This document shows positions 1,931-31,840 of a stretch of 36,529 bases of DNA, piece after piece. Origin of the DNA: a virus (Duplodnaviria; Caudoviricetes); the IMG/VR virus record IMGVR_UViG_3300020045_004911, positions 1 through 36,529 of that record; one strand, given 5' to 3'. A program made the position numbers and the translations under genes. The notes beneath the pieces were generated by a model. It was given only the letters and a program-made list of their open reading frames with translations, ran no database searches and had not been told where the DNA came from. The stretch's first letter is position 1. Each line of letters starts with the position of its first letter.

Positions 1931-2635
1931 ATGAAACTACTAGCAAAATCAGATATACATCAAAAAAAGGCTGCTGAACAAAAGCAGACTATTGATGAGG
2001 GTAAGAAACTTGCTAGTACAATCGACCGGTTGCGGGAGGTGGCAGCTCAGGAGGAGACTTCACTAGAAAAGTTTCGCAGTGAAACTTTAGAGCAAATCCA
2101 CAAAGAGACTACCGAAGCTGCTACCAAACGTGACGCTTTACTAGGCGAGGTAAAGGAATTAGAGTCCGCCAAACGTGAAGCCCTACAACCCCTCACACGG
2201 GAGCTAGAACTCATAGACGAAGCAAGGGAAGAGTTAGCCCAGAAAGCGGCTTACAATGCCACACAAGCCCTCACAATCGAAGATAGAGAACAGTCTATAT
2301 CAGCCAAAGAGAAAGAAATAGACCAAACCCTGTTAAGGGTACAAACGAAAGAAGAAGCTGTCACTAGGAAACTAGCTGACATTATTCATACAGAGGAAGA
2401 AACAAACCAACTCAATAGCGAAGCTCGACACCTTATGGAAGAGGCAAATGACATTCGAACGAGACTTAATAATGAACTTGTACACAGGGAGCAGGTGTGT
2501 GCAAATGCAGAAAACAGTATTATAATACGAGAACAACAACTGGAAGCTGACAAATCTGCGATGAGGAAAGAATGGCGTTTACTCGAAGACCGTAAAGCGG
2601 CATTCGAACGAAGCTTTAACAGATTAAAGAAATAA
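1931..2635 (+). CDS. Coiled-coil hypothetical protein
   Basis: 234 aa, E/K/L/A-rich heptad pattern. Confidence 0.8.
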   Translation: MKLLAKSDIHQKKAAEQKQTIDEGKKLASTIDRLREVAAQEETSLEKFRSETLEQIHKETTEAATKRDALLGEVKELESAKREALQPLTRELELIDEAREELAQKAAYNATQALTIEDREQSISAKEKEIDQTLLRVQTKEEAVTRKLADIIHTEEETNQLNSEARHLMEEANDIRTRLNNELVHREQVCANAENSIIIREQQLEADKSAMRKEWRLLEDRKAAFERSFNRLKK

Positions 2636-2637
2636 CC

Positions 2638-2937
2638 ATGTCATACCCTAACGGCCCAGTTACAGCAGCAGTCACCTCCAAACCACTCGCTAAAACATAC
2701 GATGCTACGATTTCATCGACAACTGCTATCACCCTTAACGGAGCTACTACTGGCATTGAAGTAACGGCTATAGATAAGGCTATCTTCCTCAAGTGGGACG
2801 CTACAGCCTCGTCTTCTGCCTTTGACGGCGTTATTCCACCAAACTCCACTAAGATATTCATGGTTCCAACTGGAACAGTGACGGCTAACTTTATTGAAGA
2901 AGCAGCTACTGCAAAACTAATTTGTGTAGAATTTTAG
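2638..2937 (+). CDS. Small beta-rich putative virion protein
   Basis: 99 aa, T/A-rich, 1-2 nt gaps to neighbouring genes. Confidence 0.65.
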   Translation: MSYPNGPVTAAVTSKPLAKTYDATISSTTAITLNGATTGIEVTAIDKAIFLKWDATASSSAFDGVIPPNSTKIFMVPTGTVTANFIEEAATAKLICVEF

Positions 2938-16653: not shown

Positions 16654-17142
16654 TTATAGGTATTTTTTATGTTTTCCTTCTCGATACGCTGACCATTGGT
16701 TGAAGTTCTTTCCCGTATGATCATAGATGTATTTTGCCATTCTGATACAACTGGCAGGGTTGGTTTTGTAATCTCCGTAACCTAAGTTCTTTGCTTTCTT
16801 ATCCCAAGACGGTGCGTGGATTTGAAATGCACAGAAGCTAGGCTCCCTGACTCCATTTCTATAGAAGTCACTTTGTCGTTCTTTGACTAAACCTCCTTCA
16901 GCCTTTGCCACAGCCACAGCGGTGTTCGGTATCTCGTGGAACACTGTTCTAATTTCTTTTTCAATTCTCCTCGGTGTCCAATCTACTACTACCTCCAATT
17001 TTACTTCTTTGGGTTCCTCTTTAAAAGTCGCAGCTTCTGCTTTATGCACAATTAATGGTTGCATGAGTATATCTCCAATGATTCCTGTTATAACTCCAAC
17101 CAGTACTGAACCTACTATGAGGTTATTCCAATTTTTTAAAAT
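16654..17142 (-). CDS. Lysozyme-like/lytic transglycosylase with probable N-terminal membrane anchor; start uncertain (ATG 17064 or non-canonical ATT 17142)
   Basis: Motifs AVAVAKAEGG, CAFQIH, NPASCIRMAKYIY and NQWSAY. The frame stays open to 17160 and encodes LIVGSVLVGVITGIIGDIL. Confidence 0.65.
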   Translation of the reverse strand: MLKNWNNLIVGSVLVGVITGIIGDILMQPLIVHKAEAATFKEEPKEVKLEVVVDWTPRRIEKEIRTVFHEIPNTAVAVAKAEGGLVKERQSDFYRNGVREPSFCAFQIHAPSWDKKAKNLGYGDYKTNPASCIRMAKYIYDHTGKNFNQWSAYREGKHKKYL

Positions 17143-17166
17143 AAGCGGGTGTCTTAAATATTAATC

Positions 17167-17264
17167 GGGGGAGGACAAAGGCCGGCACCACACCGGCCTC
17201 CCTATCTCCCCCACTCCTTAAGTTTAGCATGTAAAACCCCTCTGAATATGAAAACTGGGGATAA
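17167..17264 (-). promoter_or_regulatory. Promoter (extended -10) and GC-rich leader hairpin
   Basis: TGcTAAACT at 17229-17221 and TTATCCCCAG at 17264-17255. Hairpin GGGGGAG..AGGCCGGT/GCCGGCCT..CTCCCCC spans 17212-17167. Confidence 0.55.
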
Positions 17265-17291
17265 AAATACCCATATTTCTACGGGTATTTT
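17263..17291 (-). terminator. Terminator of the leftward accessory operon
   Basis: AAAATACCCGTA-GAAA-TATGGGTATTTTT on the minus strand. Confidence 0.8.
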
Positions 17292-17339
17292 AGTTTGTAA
17301 TCGGACTCTAGCGGCCCCGTTTGATTGGACCACCTCCCT

Positions 17340-17426
17340 TCAGAAGTAAATATGTTGTTCATCAAGCCACAGAACACCTATGATGGTGAGCGTGACCCCT
17401 ACGGCGAAGCCAATTAAGTACTTCAT
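17340..17426 (-). CDS. 28-aa single-TM peptide
   Basis: MKYLIGFAVGVTLTIIGVLWLDEQHIYF, with SD AGGGAG 7 nt upstream. Confidence 0.6.
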   Translation of the reverse strand: MKYLIGFAVGVTLTIIGVLWLDEQHIYF

Positions 17427-17430
17427 AGTC

Positions 17431-17589
17431 TTACTCCCTACATTCAGGACAGACACGGATTCCTCCGATACAGAAGCAACGAACTGGTGACGACCGAGTG
17501 GCTTGCACACTCTCGAAGGCTGTATCCTTAGCCGCCTTACGGGGTTCCTTTTTGGGGAACCGTAGATGTAGTTGCCGTTCATTTGGCAT
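17431..17589 (-). CDS. 52-aa Cys-motif protein (not in ORF track)
   Basis: MPNERQLHLRFPKKEPRKAAKDTAFESVQATRSSPVRCFCIGGIRVCPECRE, with SD GAGGAG 7 nt upstream. Confidence 0.6.
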   Translation of the reverse strand: MPNERQLHLRFPKKEPRKAAKDTAFESVQATRSSPVRCFCIGGIRVCPECRE

Positions 17590-17770
17590 CTTTTTTCTCC
17601 TCAAGTAAAATTGTCATTTGCAGGGCTGGGAGAATCATCTTTACGATGGCCCCACAACTTCCACATTCATAAATCCTAATGCGGTGAATGAAAACTTCTG
17701 TCGGTGATACCCGTTCCACTTCGGTAATATCGGAATGGAAGGTAACGTGTGAGCAGCGGATACAGTGCAT
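17579..17770 (-). CDS. 63-aa Zn-ribbon protein
   Basis: CIRC...YECGSCG, with SD AGGAGG 6 nt upstream. Confidence 0.7.
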   Translation of the reverse strand: MHCIRCSHVTFHSDITEVERVSPTEVFIHRIRIYECGSCGAIVKMILPALQMTILLEEKKDAK

Positions 17771-17791
17771 TGCCTTCCTCCTAATGTGCTT

Positions 17792-17971
17792 CTACTTTGA
17801 TTTTAGCACTTTAGTACGTATCCGCTTGGGTGGAGGTGGACAACTTATGTGCCACTCATACCCTCCACCTCCCACTGAATTATAATGCGACCCCAACGTT
17901 ATCTCTTCCTTGCAAGTAAGACACTTCATAGGAGCAAACATTGGCGATCTACGGAGTCTTACTTTTGGCAT
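17792..17971 (-). CDS. Small Zn-binding hypothetical protein
   Basis: MPKVRL...CLTC...WHISC. Start moved to ATG 17971 to avoid overlap. Confidence 0.5.
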   Translation of the reverse strand: MPKVRLRRSPMFAPMKCLTCKEEITLGSHYNSVGGGGYEWHISCPPPPKRIRTKVLKSK

Positions 17972-27322: not shown

Positions 27323-27574
27323 ATGGAAGTTTCAGAATATCTCAAGACCATCATCACTCCAATGCTTAAGCATAGTGATTCAATAACTATTACTGAAACA
27401 CAAGACGCAATGGGAGTATTGCTTTCTGTTAATGTTCACAAAGAAGATATGGGGCTAGTACTTGGTCGTAAGGGTGAAACCGCTACTGCATTTCGTCATC
27501 TCGTGCGAGTGTACGGACGTGCCAAAGACGCACGTGTAAGTGTAAAGATAAATGAGCCTGTAAATACAGGTTAA
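27323..27574 (+). CDS. khpA: KH-domain RNA-binding protein, KhpA/YlqC-like
   Basis: 83 aa: EYLKTIITPM..H.D.I, V.VHKEDMGLVLGRKGETATAFR (GxxG loop), RVSVKI. Confidence 0.85.
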   Translation: MEVSEYLKTIITPMLKHSDSITITETQDAMGVLLSVNVHKEDMGLVLGRKGETATAFRHLVRVYGRAKDARVSVKINEPVNTG

Positions 27575-27602
27575 GAGTTTAATAAAAATAAATGATTTAC
27601 TT

Positions 27603-27812
27603 ATGTCAGAAGAACAGAAAACACCAGAAGAACGGGGACAGGCATTCTTTGCCGAGTACAAGGAGTTAGTGGCAAAACATCAGGTAGATACTGTGTTCTT
27701 TCCTGTGTACGAACAACAAAAGGACGGTACATTTGTAACGAGGCTCAAGCCCCAGTTGGCTGATTTGTCGAACCAGCCAGTCCCCTCAAACTTCGTAGAA
27801 GAAGAAAAATAG
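27603..27812 (+). CDS. Hypothetical protein
   Basis: 69-aa ORF. Confidence 0.65.
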   Translation: MSEEQKTPEERGQAFFAEYKELVAKHQVDTVFFPVYEQQKDGTFVTRLKPQLADLSNQPVPSNFVEEEK

Positions 27813-27815
27813 CCC

Positions 27816-27968
27816 ATGAACCTTATTGAACGAGTTTTTGAATCGGTCACTAAAAAAATAGAAAAGGAGGAGGCTCCGAAGTTTTACAGTGAAACTGACA
27901 AGCCTAAAGGACAAGCCACTATTGTCCAAGACGAACCATTACAAGACTTATTTGAAGAACATGATTAA
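27816..27968 (+). CDS. 50-aa hypothetical protein (not in ORF track)
   Basis: MNLIERVFESVTKK...LFEEHD, overlapping the GroES start. Confidence 0.55.
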   Translation: MNLIERVFESVTKKIEKEEAPKFYSETDKPKGQATIVQDEPLQDLFEEHD

Positions 27969-28266
27969 ACCCGTAAATGGTCACCTCTTGATTGAACCAC
28001 TACCACAAGAGTCTTTTATCTCCTCAGACCGAGAAACATACCAAGAGATTGGTGTAGTCATCGACTATGATGCTGACTTCGATGATGACACTACTGTGTG
28101 GACAGGAGCAACTCTAAGTCAGTTGCCAAAACTAATTAGTAAAGGAGACAAAGTCTACTTCGACTCTTGGCTTGCTGCCAAGTTTCCAAAAGATAAAGAT
28201 TCTTACTACTGGTTAGTAAAATGGGAAGATGTAAGAGGTGTAGATTATGCGGAGGTATCAGAATAG
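27961..28266 (+). CDS. groES: Co-chaperonin GroES-like
   Basis: MIKPVNGHLLIEP, G.V.., KGDKVYF and LVKWEDVRGV. Lies upstream of GroEL. Confidence 0.8.
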   Translation: MIKPVNGHLLIEPLPQESFISSDRETYQEIGVVIDYDADFDDDTTVWTGATLSQLPKLISKGDKVYFDSWLAAKFPKDKDSYYWLVKWEDVRGVDYAEVSE

Positions 28267-28468
28267 TGTCTGTAAGGCGAATTTCTTACACGACTTCCGA
28301 CAAATAGACCAAACCAGTCAAGGCTACTTAGAACGATGTACGAGATGTGGTAAACAAATGCACTTCCCTTACGAGATTCCGAACGTTGTGTATCTTAGCT
28401 ACCATATCCGGTCAGCTCTATCAGCCAATGACGTCCTTTATAAACGAGAATATCCAAATTCAAAATGA
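28247..28468 (+). CDS. Small Zn-binding protein between GroES and GroEL
   Basis: C....LHDF...ERCTRCG; overlaps both neighbours. Confidence 0.65.
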   Translation: MRRYQNSVCKANFLHDFRQIDQTSQGYLERCTRCGKQMHFPYEIPNVVYLSYHIRSALSANDVLYKREYPNSK

Positions 28469-30048
28469 AAGATACTTTACACTTTTCAGCACAAGACAAA
28501 CTAAAAGCGGGGATTGATAAAGTCGCACGCGCCGTAGGTCAAACTATGGGAACCGGAGGGAGCAACGTCATTATTGAAGCACTGGAGCTACCCGGCTATT
28601 TGGCGACCAACGATGGTTACTCTGTGGCGAATGCCGTACACCTTGCCGACCCCATCGAGAACCTCGGAAAACAAATGCTCCTAGAGAGTATTAATCGAGC
28701 CAACAAGTCATCAGGTGACGGTTCTTCTACTACCTGTGTACTAACAGCAGCGATTATTGAGGAGGGTATGAAACATACTGCAGAAGCTCACCCAATGGAC
28801 ATCAAGCGTAGCTTAGAGGCCTGTCTACCACTTATCGAGGAGAGCCTAAATACCCAGACCCAGCACCTAGTAGCAGAAGATGGAACGTTTGACATCGAAC
28901 GCCTAAAGCAAGTGGCTACTATCTCAGCCGAGGACGAGACTATCGGTAACACTATTGCGGACATTTACGGACAAATCGGACAAAAAGGTATCATTTACTG
29001 GGATGTGTCTAAGACAACCGAGGACTCGTACACTATCGGCTCAGGTATTACCGTAGAGGGAGCCACCTATGCTTCGCCATACATGTGTGACGCTACTGAA
29101 GCCGGACAGAATACTAACGCTATCCGTATCAAGAACCCACATATCCTCCTTACTAAACAAAAGATTGCCAGCTCGTCTGACTTTAATGCAGTTGCCCAGA
29201 AGCTATTTGAAAAGGATGTAAAAGACATTGTGGTCTTTGCGGATGACTTTGAGCCACTAATCATTAATGACTTGATCCTCACCAGAGCTAAAAAGGGCTT
29301 TAGAATTGTCCTTGTAAAAATGCCTGTCCTTTGGAAGGATGTGTGGTTTGAAGACTTAGCCAAAGCTACCGGAGCAAAGATTGTAGATGCTACTGCTGGC
29401 TTTCCTCTAAAGGACTTAACTCTTGAGGACTTAGGAACAGTAAAGAACATCATCATCGACAAACAAGACACCTTCCTAGACGGCATACAAGACGTCACAG
29501 AGCACGTTAAAGTCCTAGAGGAGGAAGACACAGACGAATCAAACCTACGAGCAGCAAGACTGAACACTAAGACCGCAAGGTACTTCGTAGGAGCACAGTC
29601 AGAGTCAGCCCTCTCGTATCGCCGACTAAAGGTAGAGGACGCTATTTCAGCCGCTTTTCAGGCTTTGAATGGAGGGATTGTAGCTGGTGGAGGTATTGCG
29701 TTACTTAATGCGTCTGTAGATGTATCAAGTGGTGAGATTGGCAACCAAATCCTTATTAAAGCGTTGCGTGCTCCTCTGACGCAGATTGTACACAACTCAG
29801 GTAAAGAGTTGCCATCCAATTTCCACGTAGATGGAGTTCTTATTGGAGGAGAAATGGGCTTTAATTCAAAAACAGGAAAGGCTATCAACATGTTCGAAGC
29901 GGGGATAGTCGATCCAAAAAATGTCGTTCTTAATGCAGTTAAAAATGCAATTAGTGTGGCAGCCACAGTCCTAACGGCTCCAACTATCGTATTACTCCCC
30001 CGAATGGAACAGCCACAACCAGAACACCCAAGTCTTATCCAAAACTAA
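28465..30048 (+). CDS. groEL: Chaperonin GroEL-like
   Basis: TNDGYSVA, GDGSSTT, QVATISA, G..SPY, VEDAISA, GIVAGGGIALL, GIVDP..V...A..NA.SVA. Confidence 0.95.
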   Translation: MKDTLHFSAQDKLKAGIDKVARAVGQTMGTGGSNVIIEALELPGYLATNDGYSVANAVHLADPIENLGKQMLLESINRANKSSGDGSSTTCVLTAAIIEEGMKHTAEAHPMDIKRSLEACLPLIEESLNTQTQHLVAEDGTFDIERLKQVATISAEDETIGNTIADIYGQIGQKGIIYWDVSKTTEDSYTIGSGITVEGATYASPYMCDATEAGQNTNAIRIKNPHILLTKQKIASSSDFNAVAQKLFEKDVKDIVVFADDFEPLIINDLILTRAKKGFRIVLVKMPVLWKDVWFEDLAKATGAKIVDATAGFPLKDLTLEDLGTVKNIIIDKQDTFLDGIQDVTEHVKVLEEEDTDESNLRAARLNTKTARYFVGAQSESALSYRRLKVEDAISAAFQALNGGIVAGGGIALLNASVDVSSGEIGNQILIKALRAPLTQIVHNSGKELPSNFHVDGVLIGGEMGFNSKTGKAINMFEAGIVDPKNVVLNAVKNAISVAATVLTAPTIVLLPRMEQPQPEHPSLIQN

Positions 30049-31689: not shown

Positions 31690-31840
31690 TGGGGAGTGGC
31701 GGAATAGGTAGACGCAGAGTTGCTCACTAGCAGTGAGACAAAGGTATAGACCGAGCTACAAAAGTGGTTAATCAGACCAGATACTAGTCACTCTGGCGGC
31801 AGAAAGTGACCATGTAAGGTGCAAATCCTTACCTCCCCAT
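31690..31840 (+). ncRNA. tRNA-like RNA with expanded core
   Basis: Acceptor TGGGGAG/CTCCCCA, Leu-type D arm TGGCGGAATAGGTAGACGC, T-arm-like GTAAGG-TGCAAAT-CCTTAC, and 98 nt between the arms. Confidence 0.7.

What the first reader, a model, noticed from the sequence alone, without database searches (positions are those of the whole stretch)
17340..17782. Three-gene SD-led micro-operon inside an otherwise SD-free genome
Seen: three consecutive tiny genes (63-aa Zn ribbon, 52-aa CxC/CxxC protein, 28-aa TM peptide) each have a strong SD at 6-7 nt (AGGAGG, GAGGAG, AGGGAG), followed by the extended anti-16S element. Nearly all other starts I inspected have AT-rich contexts (AATATG, TTATG) with no SD. 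The ORF track has the middle gene in the wrong frame. Inference: a cassette under a separate translation regime, either recently imported or read by a different ribosome pool or state. If the host is an episymbiotic CPR bacterium, the reader could even be the partner cell. Together with the 16S-complementary tail this is my best candidate for an undescribed system.
Basis: partly seen in the sequence, partly recalled or inferred. Interest (0 to 1): 0.7.

Follow-up and report, generated by a model that had tools for sequence, protein, structure and literature searches.

The report
Phage mini-operon with ribosome-docking tail
A phage whose other genes lack ribosome-binding (Shine-Dalgarno) sites carries a three-gene unit that has them and ends in a 17-base match to the ribosome's 16S RNA tail with no normal start codon; the same tail recurs in two other phages and likely parks the host's own ribosomes on this RNA.

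Summary
Confirmed and extended. The three minus-strand ORFs have real SD sites (-10.2, -8.6, -7.4 kcal/mol). Only 2 of 57 other starts reach -7, which is background level. The 52-aa frame is backed by a homologue. The unit is wider than reported (17262-17808): an extended -10 promoter, three overlapping SD-led genes, a 17-nt complement of the 16S 3' end, a small hairpin and a terminator-like hairpin. It is not a one-off import. SD-led small-gene chains occur in 5 of 17 related SD-free phage records, with shuffled cargo, and the tail is conserved in 3 of 17 behind different last genes. The tail has the geometry of the published rreB ribosome-binding site, but has AUC where rreB has its GUG start, and no conserved peptide follows. 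Best reading: a moron-like accessory operon read by the host's own ribosome, ending in a start-less 30S docking site that likely protects or tunes the RNA. The host is probably CPR, but this is unproven. Translation by the partner cell is unsupported and not needed. Protein functions are unresolved. New variant of a known kind; I did not find it in print.

The parts
17800..17808 (-). Extended -10 promoter-like element (TGnTAAAAT), 29 nt before the gene 1 ATG; activity inferred
   Evidence: such a site 18-45 nt before an SD-led ATG occurs 4 times in 17 records against 0.02 in shuffles (3 of the 4 records were picked for likeness to the cassette). Not listed by the -35/-10 scanner.
17777..17782 (-). 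SD of gene 1 (AGGAGG, 6 nt from ATG)
   Evidence: -10.2 kcal/mol; same SD and spacing before the homologue in L001
17579..17770 (-). Gene 1: 63-aa protein, CxxC-(29)-CxxC, predicted zinc ribbon, no named family
   Evidence: four Cys invariant in 5 of 5; 3 further distant members; no significant family hit
17597..17602 (-). SD of gene 2 (GAGGAG, 7 nt from ATG), inside the last codons of gene 1
   Evidence: -8.6 kcal/mol
17431..17589 (-). Gene 2: 52-aa protein ending in a Cys cluster (FCIG...CxxC)
   Evidence: C-terminus homologous to L023 gene 2 in this frame
17434..17439 (-). SD of gene 3 (AGGGAG, 7 nt from ATG), inside the last codons of gene 2
   Evidence: -7.4 kcal/mol
17340..17426 (-). Gene 3: 28-aa predicted single-pass membrane peptide (38 aa if GTG 17456 is used); absent from the L023 and G009 cassettes
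   Evidence: Hydropathy 2.16; one low-depth contig of run X1 matches 17346-17496 with no differences; no family over cut-off
17323..17339 (-). 17-nt complement of the 16S rRNA 3' end directly after the gene 3 stop; no ATG/GTG/TTG 3-20 nt behind its GGAGG; ATC (17325-17323) at the position where rreB has its start codon
   Evidence: conserved in L023 and G009/L078
17302..17319 (-). Predicted 5-bp hairpin with invariant CGCUAGA loop; holds the UAG that closes the 5-codon frame from AUC
   Evidence: 15 of 15 cells pair, one compensatory change, not significant with 3 sequences (179 of 500 shuffles); in the MFE of L023 and L078 but not of the window
17262..17291 (-). 12-bp terminator-like hairpin with U-run, A-run on its 5' side
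   Evidence: a hairpin of different sequence at the same place in L023 and L078; not listed by the simple scanner

Best explanation
This is a three-gene unit of Shine-Dalgarno-led small genes in an otherwise SD-free phage, likely transcribed from its own promoter and read by the host's own ribosomes, and ending in a conserved 17-base 16S-complementary site without a normal start codon that likely parks a small ribosomal subunit on the RNA's 3' end. Shown: the ORFs and SDs; the SD-free background; the overlap of each SD with the end of the previous gene; the conservation of the tail behind three different last genes; the lack of a canonical start or conserved peptide behind it; and the exchange of cargo genes between phages. 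Inferred, step by step: (1) host RNA polymerase transcribes from the extended -10 to the terminator, giving about 530 nt. (2) Ribosomes with an accessible anti-SD initiate on gene 1 and re-initiate on genes 2 and 3 by termination-coupled re-initiation. (3) The 30S that ends the last gene, or a free one, pairs over 12-17 bp with the tail and places AUC in the P site, as rreB places GUG. Initiation there is very weak, giving at most a 5-codon or start-stop product. (4) The parked 30S shields the RNA end or a short 3' fragment from decay, as the start-less rreB mutant and STAB-SD elements do, so the amount of this RNA and of its small Cys-rich or membrane proteins follows the supply of anti-SD-competent ribosomes. 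The proteins are probably interchangeable host-modulating accessory factors; their targets are unknown. Odds: unit real 0.9; tail a selected RNA element 0.9; it binds 30S 0.7; read in the phage's own host 0.85; stabilisation is the main purpose 0.4.
For: SD energies against background. Long genes with SD <= -7: 10 of 337 in 17 related records, equal to background. Head-to-tail SD-SD ORF pairs in the gaps: 13 against 2.6 +- 1.7, 0 of 100 shuffles. L001 keeps gene 1 with the same SD and an extended -10, followed by a different SD-led HNH-like gene. L023, found by RecA alone, keeps the gene 2 family and the tail but has a different gene 1 and no gene 3. G009 has the L023 gene 1 family, a 15-aa gene and the tail. 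L025 has a promoter, four SD-led small genes and a terminator. Five of 6 members of the L023 gene 1 family end in EEGG(A/T), the codons that spell the next SD in L023 (their DNA not seen). The tail pairs at -30.5, -31.4 and -31.1; ATC stands at +7 in 3 of 3, and a 1-nt indel in G009 breaks any shared peptide. rreB: 17-nt complement, 7 nt between SD and start, tight 30S binding, weak translation, half-life 10 to 37 min when the start is replaced by a stop (PMC5711450). An SD without a start codon stabilises RNA in Bacilli (PMC3997798).
Against: There are no expression, ribosome or host data. Three of the 17 records were selected for likeness to the cassette; among the 14 picked by RecA alone, 2 have a plausible SD chain and 1 has the tail, so the unit is patchy. 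Seven pairs remain without the selected records, four of which look like chance; the null was not recomputed for that subset. The tail family has only 3 members and its covariation is not significant; the model found no fourth member in 143 sources. The small hairpin is not in the window's MFE. Four of the 17 pairs fall on the 3' strand of the terminal 16S hairpin and may not form. Pairing was computed with E. coli 16S or a generic anti-SD, not the host's. G009 has a stronger site that is plain Gly-rich coding sequence, and 77 of 87 distinct viral contexts of the 15-mer lie in long open frames, so such matches do arise by chance. In G009 the motif is inside the last gene's final codons, not after the stop. 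rreB overexpression did not slow growth, which argues against a bulk ribosome sink.
Confidence: 0.5

Rival explanations
1. Ribosome-state switch: the host's normal ribosomes are SD-blind (anti-SD sequestered, as in Bacteroidia). The unit is translated only by a sub-pool with a freed anti-SD, such as bS21-free ribosomes, and the long tail is the selector or trap for that pool.
For: In F. johnsoniae only an extended SD of 9-13 bp (-14 to -21 kcal/mol) recruits bS21-free ribosomes (PMC9976891; PMC13000457). The tail gives 12 bp at -20.6 against the free 13 nt. The background is SD-free.
Against: The three genes have ordinary 6-nt SDs, while McNutt et al. say an extended SD is needed; the extended site here leads no real gene. 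No bS21 gene was detected in the window. Host unknown.
Confidence: 0.17
2. The tail is simply a fourth, rreB-like gene: an extended SD with an AUC start that makes a basic micro-peptide or a start-stop minigene product.
For: ATC at the rreB start position in 3 of 3. The window and L023 give IKRGR* and IKQGR*, with the UAG in an invariant loop.
Against: G009 gives I* because of a 1-nt insertion, yet keeps the loop. AUC is a very poor start codon (my knowledge).
Confidence: 0.12
3. Type I toxin-antitoxin-like module: gene 3 is a membrane toxin, and the tail is RNA control (an anti-SD-bearing antisense RNA or fold-back).
For: 28-aa hydrophobic peptide with an SD; L025's unit also ends in a membrane peptide. 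A + strand promoter-like site at 17583-17611.
Against: L023 and G009 have the tail without any membrane peptide. No type I toxin family hit at E <= 1. The antisense promoter count is at chance level (4 against 3.4).
Confidence: 0.08
4. The unit is expressed in the partner (basibiont) cell of an episymbiotic CPR host, whose SD-using ribosomes read it.
For: The SDs and tail match a canonical 16S. About half of Parcubacteria lack the anti-SD. There are CPR hints for the host.
Against: The same promoter type stands before SD-less genes. The other half of Parcubacteria keep the anti-SD. No transfer route was seen.
Confidence: 0.06
5. Neutral relic: genes imported from SD-using donors keep their SDs passively, and the tail is a decayed gene start or a chance match.
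For: Slightly higher GC and GC3 (0.474 and 0.471 against 0.414 and 0.372). A codon model trained on long genes missed genes 1 and 2. The single-window P is only 0.016.
Against: The tail is conserved while the genes in front of it change. The SD is kept at 65-69% protein identity. No donor was found in GTDB genomes, INPHARED or PLSDB (limited sensitivity).
Confidence: 0.07

Closest known systems
rreB / rreR small mRNAs of Alphaproteobacteria (Hahn et al., PMC5711450)
   Same: 16-17 nt complementarity to the 16S 3' end; 7 nt between the SD core and the P-site codon; short structured RNA ending in a terminator
   Different: rreB is a stand-alone mRNA with a GUG start and a conserved 14-aa peptide. 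Here the site lies at the 3' end of an operon, has AUC, encodes no conserved peptide, and sits in a phage with SD-free genes. It also has fewer paired bases 5' of the SD, the part rreB needs for tight binding.
STAB-SD of B. thuringiensis cryIIIA (as reviewed in PMC3997798)
   Same: Strong SD without a start codon, proposed to hold a 30S subunit and shield the RNA behind it
   Different: STAB-SD is in a 5' leader and protects a gene. Here only about 60 nt of structured RNA lie behind the site.
Extended SD of rpsU (bS21) in Bacteroidia (PMC9976891, PMC13000457)
   Same: Very long SD in an SD-free background, with similar pairing energy over the free 16S tail
   Different: The rpsU site leads a real AUG gene in an autoregulatory loop. 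No bS21 gene was detected here, and the cargo genes have ordinary SDs.
Morons: autonomous extra transcription units of phages (from my own knowledge)
   Same: Own promoter and terminator, variable cargo, patchy among relatives
   Different: Here the unit is polycistronic and differs from its genome in initiation signal. In the window it is co-oriented with, and at the end of, the early small-gene block.
Rfam CC2171 (RF01867), Caulobacter sRNA
   Same: Its consensus has the same extended SD stretch (E 0.055)
   Different: 21.5 bits against a gathering score of 75; only the SD stretch aligns; not a member

Membership tests
rreB/rre genes | At least 16 nt complementary to the 16S 3' end | tested here: met
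   17 bp with 3 G-U to E. coli 16S in the window, 1 G-U in L023; host 16S not available
rreB/rre genes | GTG or ATG start codon 7 nt behind the SD | tested here: not met
   ATC at that position in 3 of 3; no ATG/GTG/TTG at 3-20 nt
rreB/rre genes | Conserved sORF | tested here: not met
   IKRGR*, IKQGR*, I*
rreB/rre genes | Tight 30S binding, weak translation | not testable with these tools
   Needs gradients or toeprinting
STAB-SD | Strong SD with no start codon | tested here: met
STAB-SD | Located in a 5' leader, upstream of the protected gene | tested here: not met
   Lies after the last stop, before a terminator-like hairpin
STAB-SD | Raises the half-life of downstream RNA | not testable with these tools
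   No RNA data
rpsU/bS21 autoregulatory SD | Extended SD leads the bS21 gene | tested here: not met
   No bS21 family hit among 59 window proteins; the site leads no gene
Moron | Own promoter and terminator | tested here: inconclusive
   Extended -10 and hairpin present and recurrent, but missed by the consensus scanner; activity untested
Moron | Present in some close relatives, absent or different in others | tested here: met
   Different cargo at the same locus in L023; chains in 5 of 17 records, tail in 3 of 17
Type I toxin-antitoxin | Small hydrophobic peptide | tested here: met
   Hydropathy 2.16
Type I toxin-antitoxin | Membership of a known toxin family | tested here: not met
   No toxin model in Pfam at E <= 1; NCBIfam only a daptide model far below cut-off
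Type I toxin-antitoxin | Antisense antitoxin RNA | tested here: inconclusive
   One antisense promoter-like site at chance level
Phage of CPR/Patescibacteria | Host link by spacer, prophage or host-derived genes | tested here: inconclusive
   KhpA's five nearest structural rows are all CPR-dominated clusters, while the feature rows are mixed. One RecA relative is in a Paceibacterota MAG and one in a Gammaproteobacteria MAG. No close prophage in GTDB genomes.

The most novel reading that the evidence does not exclude
Phages of SD-blind, probably CPR, bacteria carry a swappable operon that only a special ribosome state (anti-SD freed) can read. Its start-less 17-nt tail captures those ribosomes and couples expression of phage host-modulating micro-proteins to the host's ribosome composition or stress state. 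In the boldest form, the operon is read in the partner cell.
Probability: 0.17. Interest if true: 0.8.

Novelty: new variant of a known kind. Interest (0 to 1): 0.5.

Why it matters
Why lineages that start almost all genes without an SD keep the anti-SD tail of 16S is an open question, answered so far only for rpsU in Bacteroidia. This unit shows that phages of such a lineage keep a small, swappable set of SD-led genes, and some of them a start-less 17-nt docking site as well. It gives a 90-nt RNA that can be tested at once with E. coli, B. subtilis or F. johnsoniae ribosomes, complete or bS21-free. It also links two patterns noted separately in this scan: SD-led cassettes in CPR genomes, and start-less 16S complements after stop codons in phages. 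If it only stabilises RNA it is a modest addition. If it selects a ribosome sub-pool, it is a new way for a phage to sense its host's ribosomes.

Tried and rejected
Rfam gave no hit at gathering level in the window and only tRNAs in 20 related loci; CC2171 matches just the SD stretch. The 19-mer scan of viral contigs gave one hit, L003, antisense to a Clp ATPase gene: chance. The gapped tail pattern gave 17 hits, of which 1 (G009) is real. Gene 1 searches in metagenome and GTDB collections found none of 102 and 74 candidates. L002 (44% over 25 aa) was not inspected further. The plant LRR protein P0134 in the profile search was dropped as spurious. The AlphaFold model of gene 1 is low-confidence (pLDDT 58, pTM 0.32), so no fold search was run; Atlas matches are unnamed small-protein clusters. 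PHROGs, Pfam, NCBIfam and PADLOC gave no significant family for the three proteins. Homologues of the 28-aa peptide could not be sought by the large protein searches (too short). The permutation used a threshold that left out gene 3 and was replaced. The tail region has no meaningful match in INPHARED or PLSDB. The terminase finds only distant (about 26%) SPO1-like phages, with no host information. No RNA holder was listed; run X1 covers only small pieces. No CPR genome could be reached, so the host 16S tail was not examined. The 80-aa reading of the middle frame was rejected because the homology lies in the 52-aa frame. Ten literature searches found no paper on SD-led operons in CPR phages or on a start-less 3' 16S complement in phages; the library lacks most subscription papers.

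Full report
Setting. The window is a 36.5-kb virus record, about 90% complete. It encodes a terminase, GroEL, RecA, a DnaB-like helicase, KhpA and an M15 endolysin. The finding lies at the downstream end of a minus-strand block of small genes (about 22190-16654), next to the lysis genes on the other strand. RecA has 504 hits among 4226 candidates. The best 120 are 68-100% identical, and the longest of their contigs are about 40 kb, so this is a sizeable family of uncultured phages.

Observation. The three ORFs and their SD-like hexamers are as described. With a generic anti-SD probe (recalled, not from a call) they pair at -10.2, -8.6 and -7.4 kcal/mol. The other 57 hand-curated starts have a median of -0.5, and 2 of 57 reach -7, the same rate as 974 non-start ATGs (3.4%). 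A run of three has P = 0.016 given 5 positives in 60 (post hoc threshold). The middle gene's 52-aa frame is right: its C-terminus matches gene 2 of L023 with the same distance to the stop and 5 synonymous changes in 15 codons. The competing 80-aa ORF has an ATGA overlap with gene 1 but no such support. GC is 0.474 and GC3 0.471, against 0.414 and 0.372 for 14 neighbours; single neighbours span 0.34-0.51 and 0.26-0.51, so composition does not show import.

An extended -10 element lies 29 nt before gene 1, and each later SD lies in the last codons of the previous gene. After the last stop come a 17-nt complement of the 16S 3' end, a predicted 5-bp hairpin, an A-rich linker and a 12-bp terminator-like hairpin. 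The simple scanner, which needs a -35 and a G+C stem followed by a T-run, listed neither the promoter nor the terminator; both are inferred.

Recurrence. I examined 17 records: the window, 14 found by RecA alone, L001 (found by gene 1) and G009 (found by the tail). Their long genes are SD-free: 10 of 337 reach -7. In the gaps, head-to-tail pairs of SD-led ORFs number 13 against 2.6 +- 1.7 in shuffles (0 of 100), and an extended -10 followed by an SD-led ATG occurs 4 times against 0.02. Without the three selected records, 7 pairs and 1 promoter case remain; I did not recompute the null for that subset, and four of the 7 look like chance.

Convincing chains occur in 5 of 17 records. L001 has gene 1 with the same SD, then an HNH-like gene. 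L023 has another Cys-rich gene 1, the gene 2 family and the tail, with no membrane peptide. G009 has the L023 gene 1 family (51% identity), a 15-aa gene and the tail. L025 has four SD-led genes, the last a membrane peptide, and no tail. G001 has two SD-led Cys-rich genes behind a TATAAT, and G002, G007 and G008 have single SD-led small genes. The cargo is thus swapped among phages. Gene 1 has 4 hits including itself in the 90% database and 3 more distant ones by profile. The L023 gene 1 family has 6 members, 5 ending in EEGG(A/T), which in L023 spells the next SD. None carries an informative name.

The tail. Against the last 20 nt of E. coli 16S the three copies pair over 17 bp at -30.5, -31.4 and -31.1. 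Twelve pairs are with the free 3' end, and four fall on the 3' strand of the terminal hairpin. In the window and L023 it is the best site in the record, and 0 of 60 shuffles of the window reach it; in G009 one Gly-rich coding site is stronger. No ATG, GTG or TTG follows within 3-20 nt. The codon 7 nt behind GGAGG is ATC in all three, giving IKRGR*, IKQGR* and I*, so no peptide is conserved and the element acts as RNA. The small hairpin pairs in 15 of 15 cells with one compensatory change, which is not significant with three sequences. A covariance model found no fourth member in 44 plus 99 sources.

The 15-mer core alone has 119 listed hits in viral contigs, and the scan stopped at 37 of 64 parts. 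Of 87 distinct contexts, 77 lie in long open frames and 10 do not. Four of those 10 have a terminator-like hairpin behind them, against 5 of 77, which hints at a wider class in unrelated phages.

Host. KhpA's five nearest structural rows are all CPR-dominated clusters, while its feature rows are mixed and score below 0.9. One RecA relative is in a Paceibacterota MAG and one in a Gammaproteobacteria MAG. Four of 25 metagenome RecA loci have '01um' in their contig names. No close prophage was found in GTDB genomes. I put a CPR host at about 0.7. The anti-SD was detected in 48% of Parcubacteria (PMC9297842), so a CPR host can have it. The same extended -10 type stands before SD-less genes in L001 and G009. 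One polymerase and one cell suffice, and the partner-cell idea is not needed, although without the host 16S it cannot be excluded.

Mechanism and comparison. The closest published element is rreB (PMC5711450): a 17-nt 16S complement with 7 nt between SD and a GUG start, tight 30S binding, very weak translation, and a half-life rising from 10 to 37 min when the start is replaced by a stop; overexpression did not slow growth. The tail has that geometry with AUC in the start position and sits at an operon's end. It works like a start-less rreB site or a STAB-SD (PMC3997798), but fails membership of both. I therefore read the unit as a moron-like operon, translated by coupled SD-led initiation in the host, whose tail parks a 30S and likely stabilises or tunes the RNA (0.5). 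The main rival is selection of an anti-SD-freed ribosome pool, as for rpsU (PMC9976891, PMC13000457); the ordinary SDs of the cargo genes argue against it (0.17).

Papers seen. PMC5711450: parts 1-4 of 6 (abstract to discussion, no figures or supplement). PMC9976891: passages and section 32. PMC13000457: abstract and two passages. PMC9297842 and PMC3997798: passages. PMC10783764: one reference-list passage. All others: search listings only. Supplements were not read; the rreB alignments and the CPR 16S tables could bear on whether AUC variants are already known and on which lineages keep the anti-SD. 'Moron', 'helix 45' as a name for the terminal hairpin, and the weakness of AUC starts are from my own knowledge. 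Earlier AI notes of this scan describe SD-led cassettes in CPR chromosomes and start-less 16S complements after stop codons in other phages. They agree with this reading but are not independent support.

Verdict. The unit is real and recurrent, and built from known kinds of parts in an arrangement I did not find in print: a new variant of a known kind, interest 0.5.

Noticed in passing
window 16654-17160 (-); L023 about 2360-2870 (-): The lysozyme-like gene (SLT_3, E 0.016) has an in-frame conserved membrane segment upstream of its first ATG, with no ATG/GTG/TTG back to the previous stop in either phage. It probably starts at a non-canonical codon such as ATT.
   Followed up: partly
window 17163-17229 (-); L023 2870-2940 (-): A second extended -10 element is followed by a G+C-rich hairpin (z -4.0) that is identical over 58 nt in both phages: a conserved structured leader or small RNA before the lysozyme-like gene. 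A 35-codon ORF spans it in both.
   Followed up: partly
window about 31693-31822 (+): tRNA-like sequence with tRNA-type ends around a long insert; missed by ARAGORN and Rfam.
   Followed up: no
window 27323-30048 (+): Phage-borne KhpA KH-domain protein and GroES-like/GroEL genes; KhpA in 4 and GroEL (56-68%) in 5 of the related records. An RNA-binding protein in a phage with two translation signals may be worth testing on the tail.
   Followed up: partly
L071, L088, L112, L153 (motif at about 2060-2515), L114, L168: In unrelated phages the same 15-mer lies shortly after a stop codon and before hairpins or a terminator, for example after spanin-like lysis genes and before the small terminase.
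   Followed up: partly
L069, L085, L086, L092, L101, L113, L117, L150 and kin: A family of phage ORFs of roughly 130-260 aa repeatedly carries the perfect 16S complement in frame (codons for EVIQS) with a purine run before it; possibly an internal pause or frameshift signal.
   Followed up: no
L063-L066/G008 18818 (-), G007 711 (+), L038 1325 (-): Single SD-led small genes that look related to one another by eye; the G008 copy has an extended -10 element 24 nt upstream.
   Followed up: no
window 17792-17929 (-): A fourth small Cys/His ORF (45-59 aa) just upstream has no SD. Its Gly4 and Pro4 codons form an inverted repeat in front of the cassette promoter, which might insulate it.
   Followed up: no
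G009/L078 118-2291 (-): A cluster of seven tRNA genes lies directly downstream of the G009 cassette.
   Followed up: no
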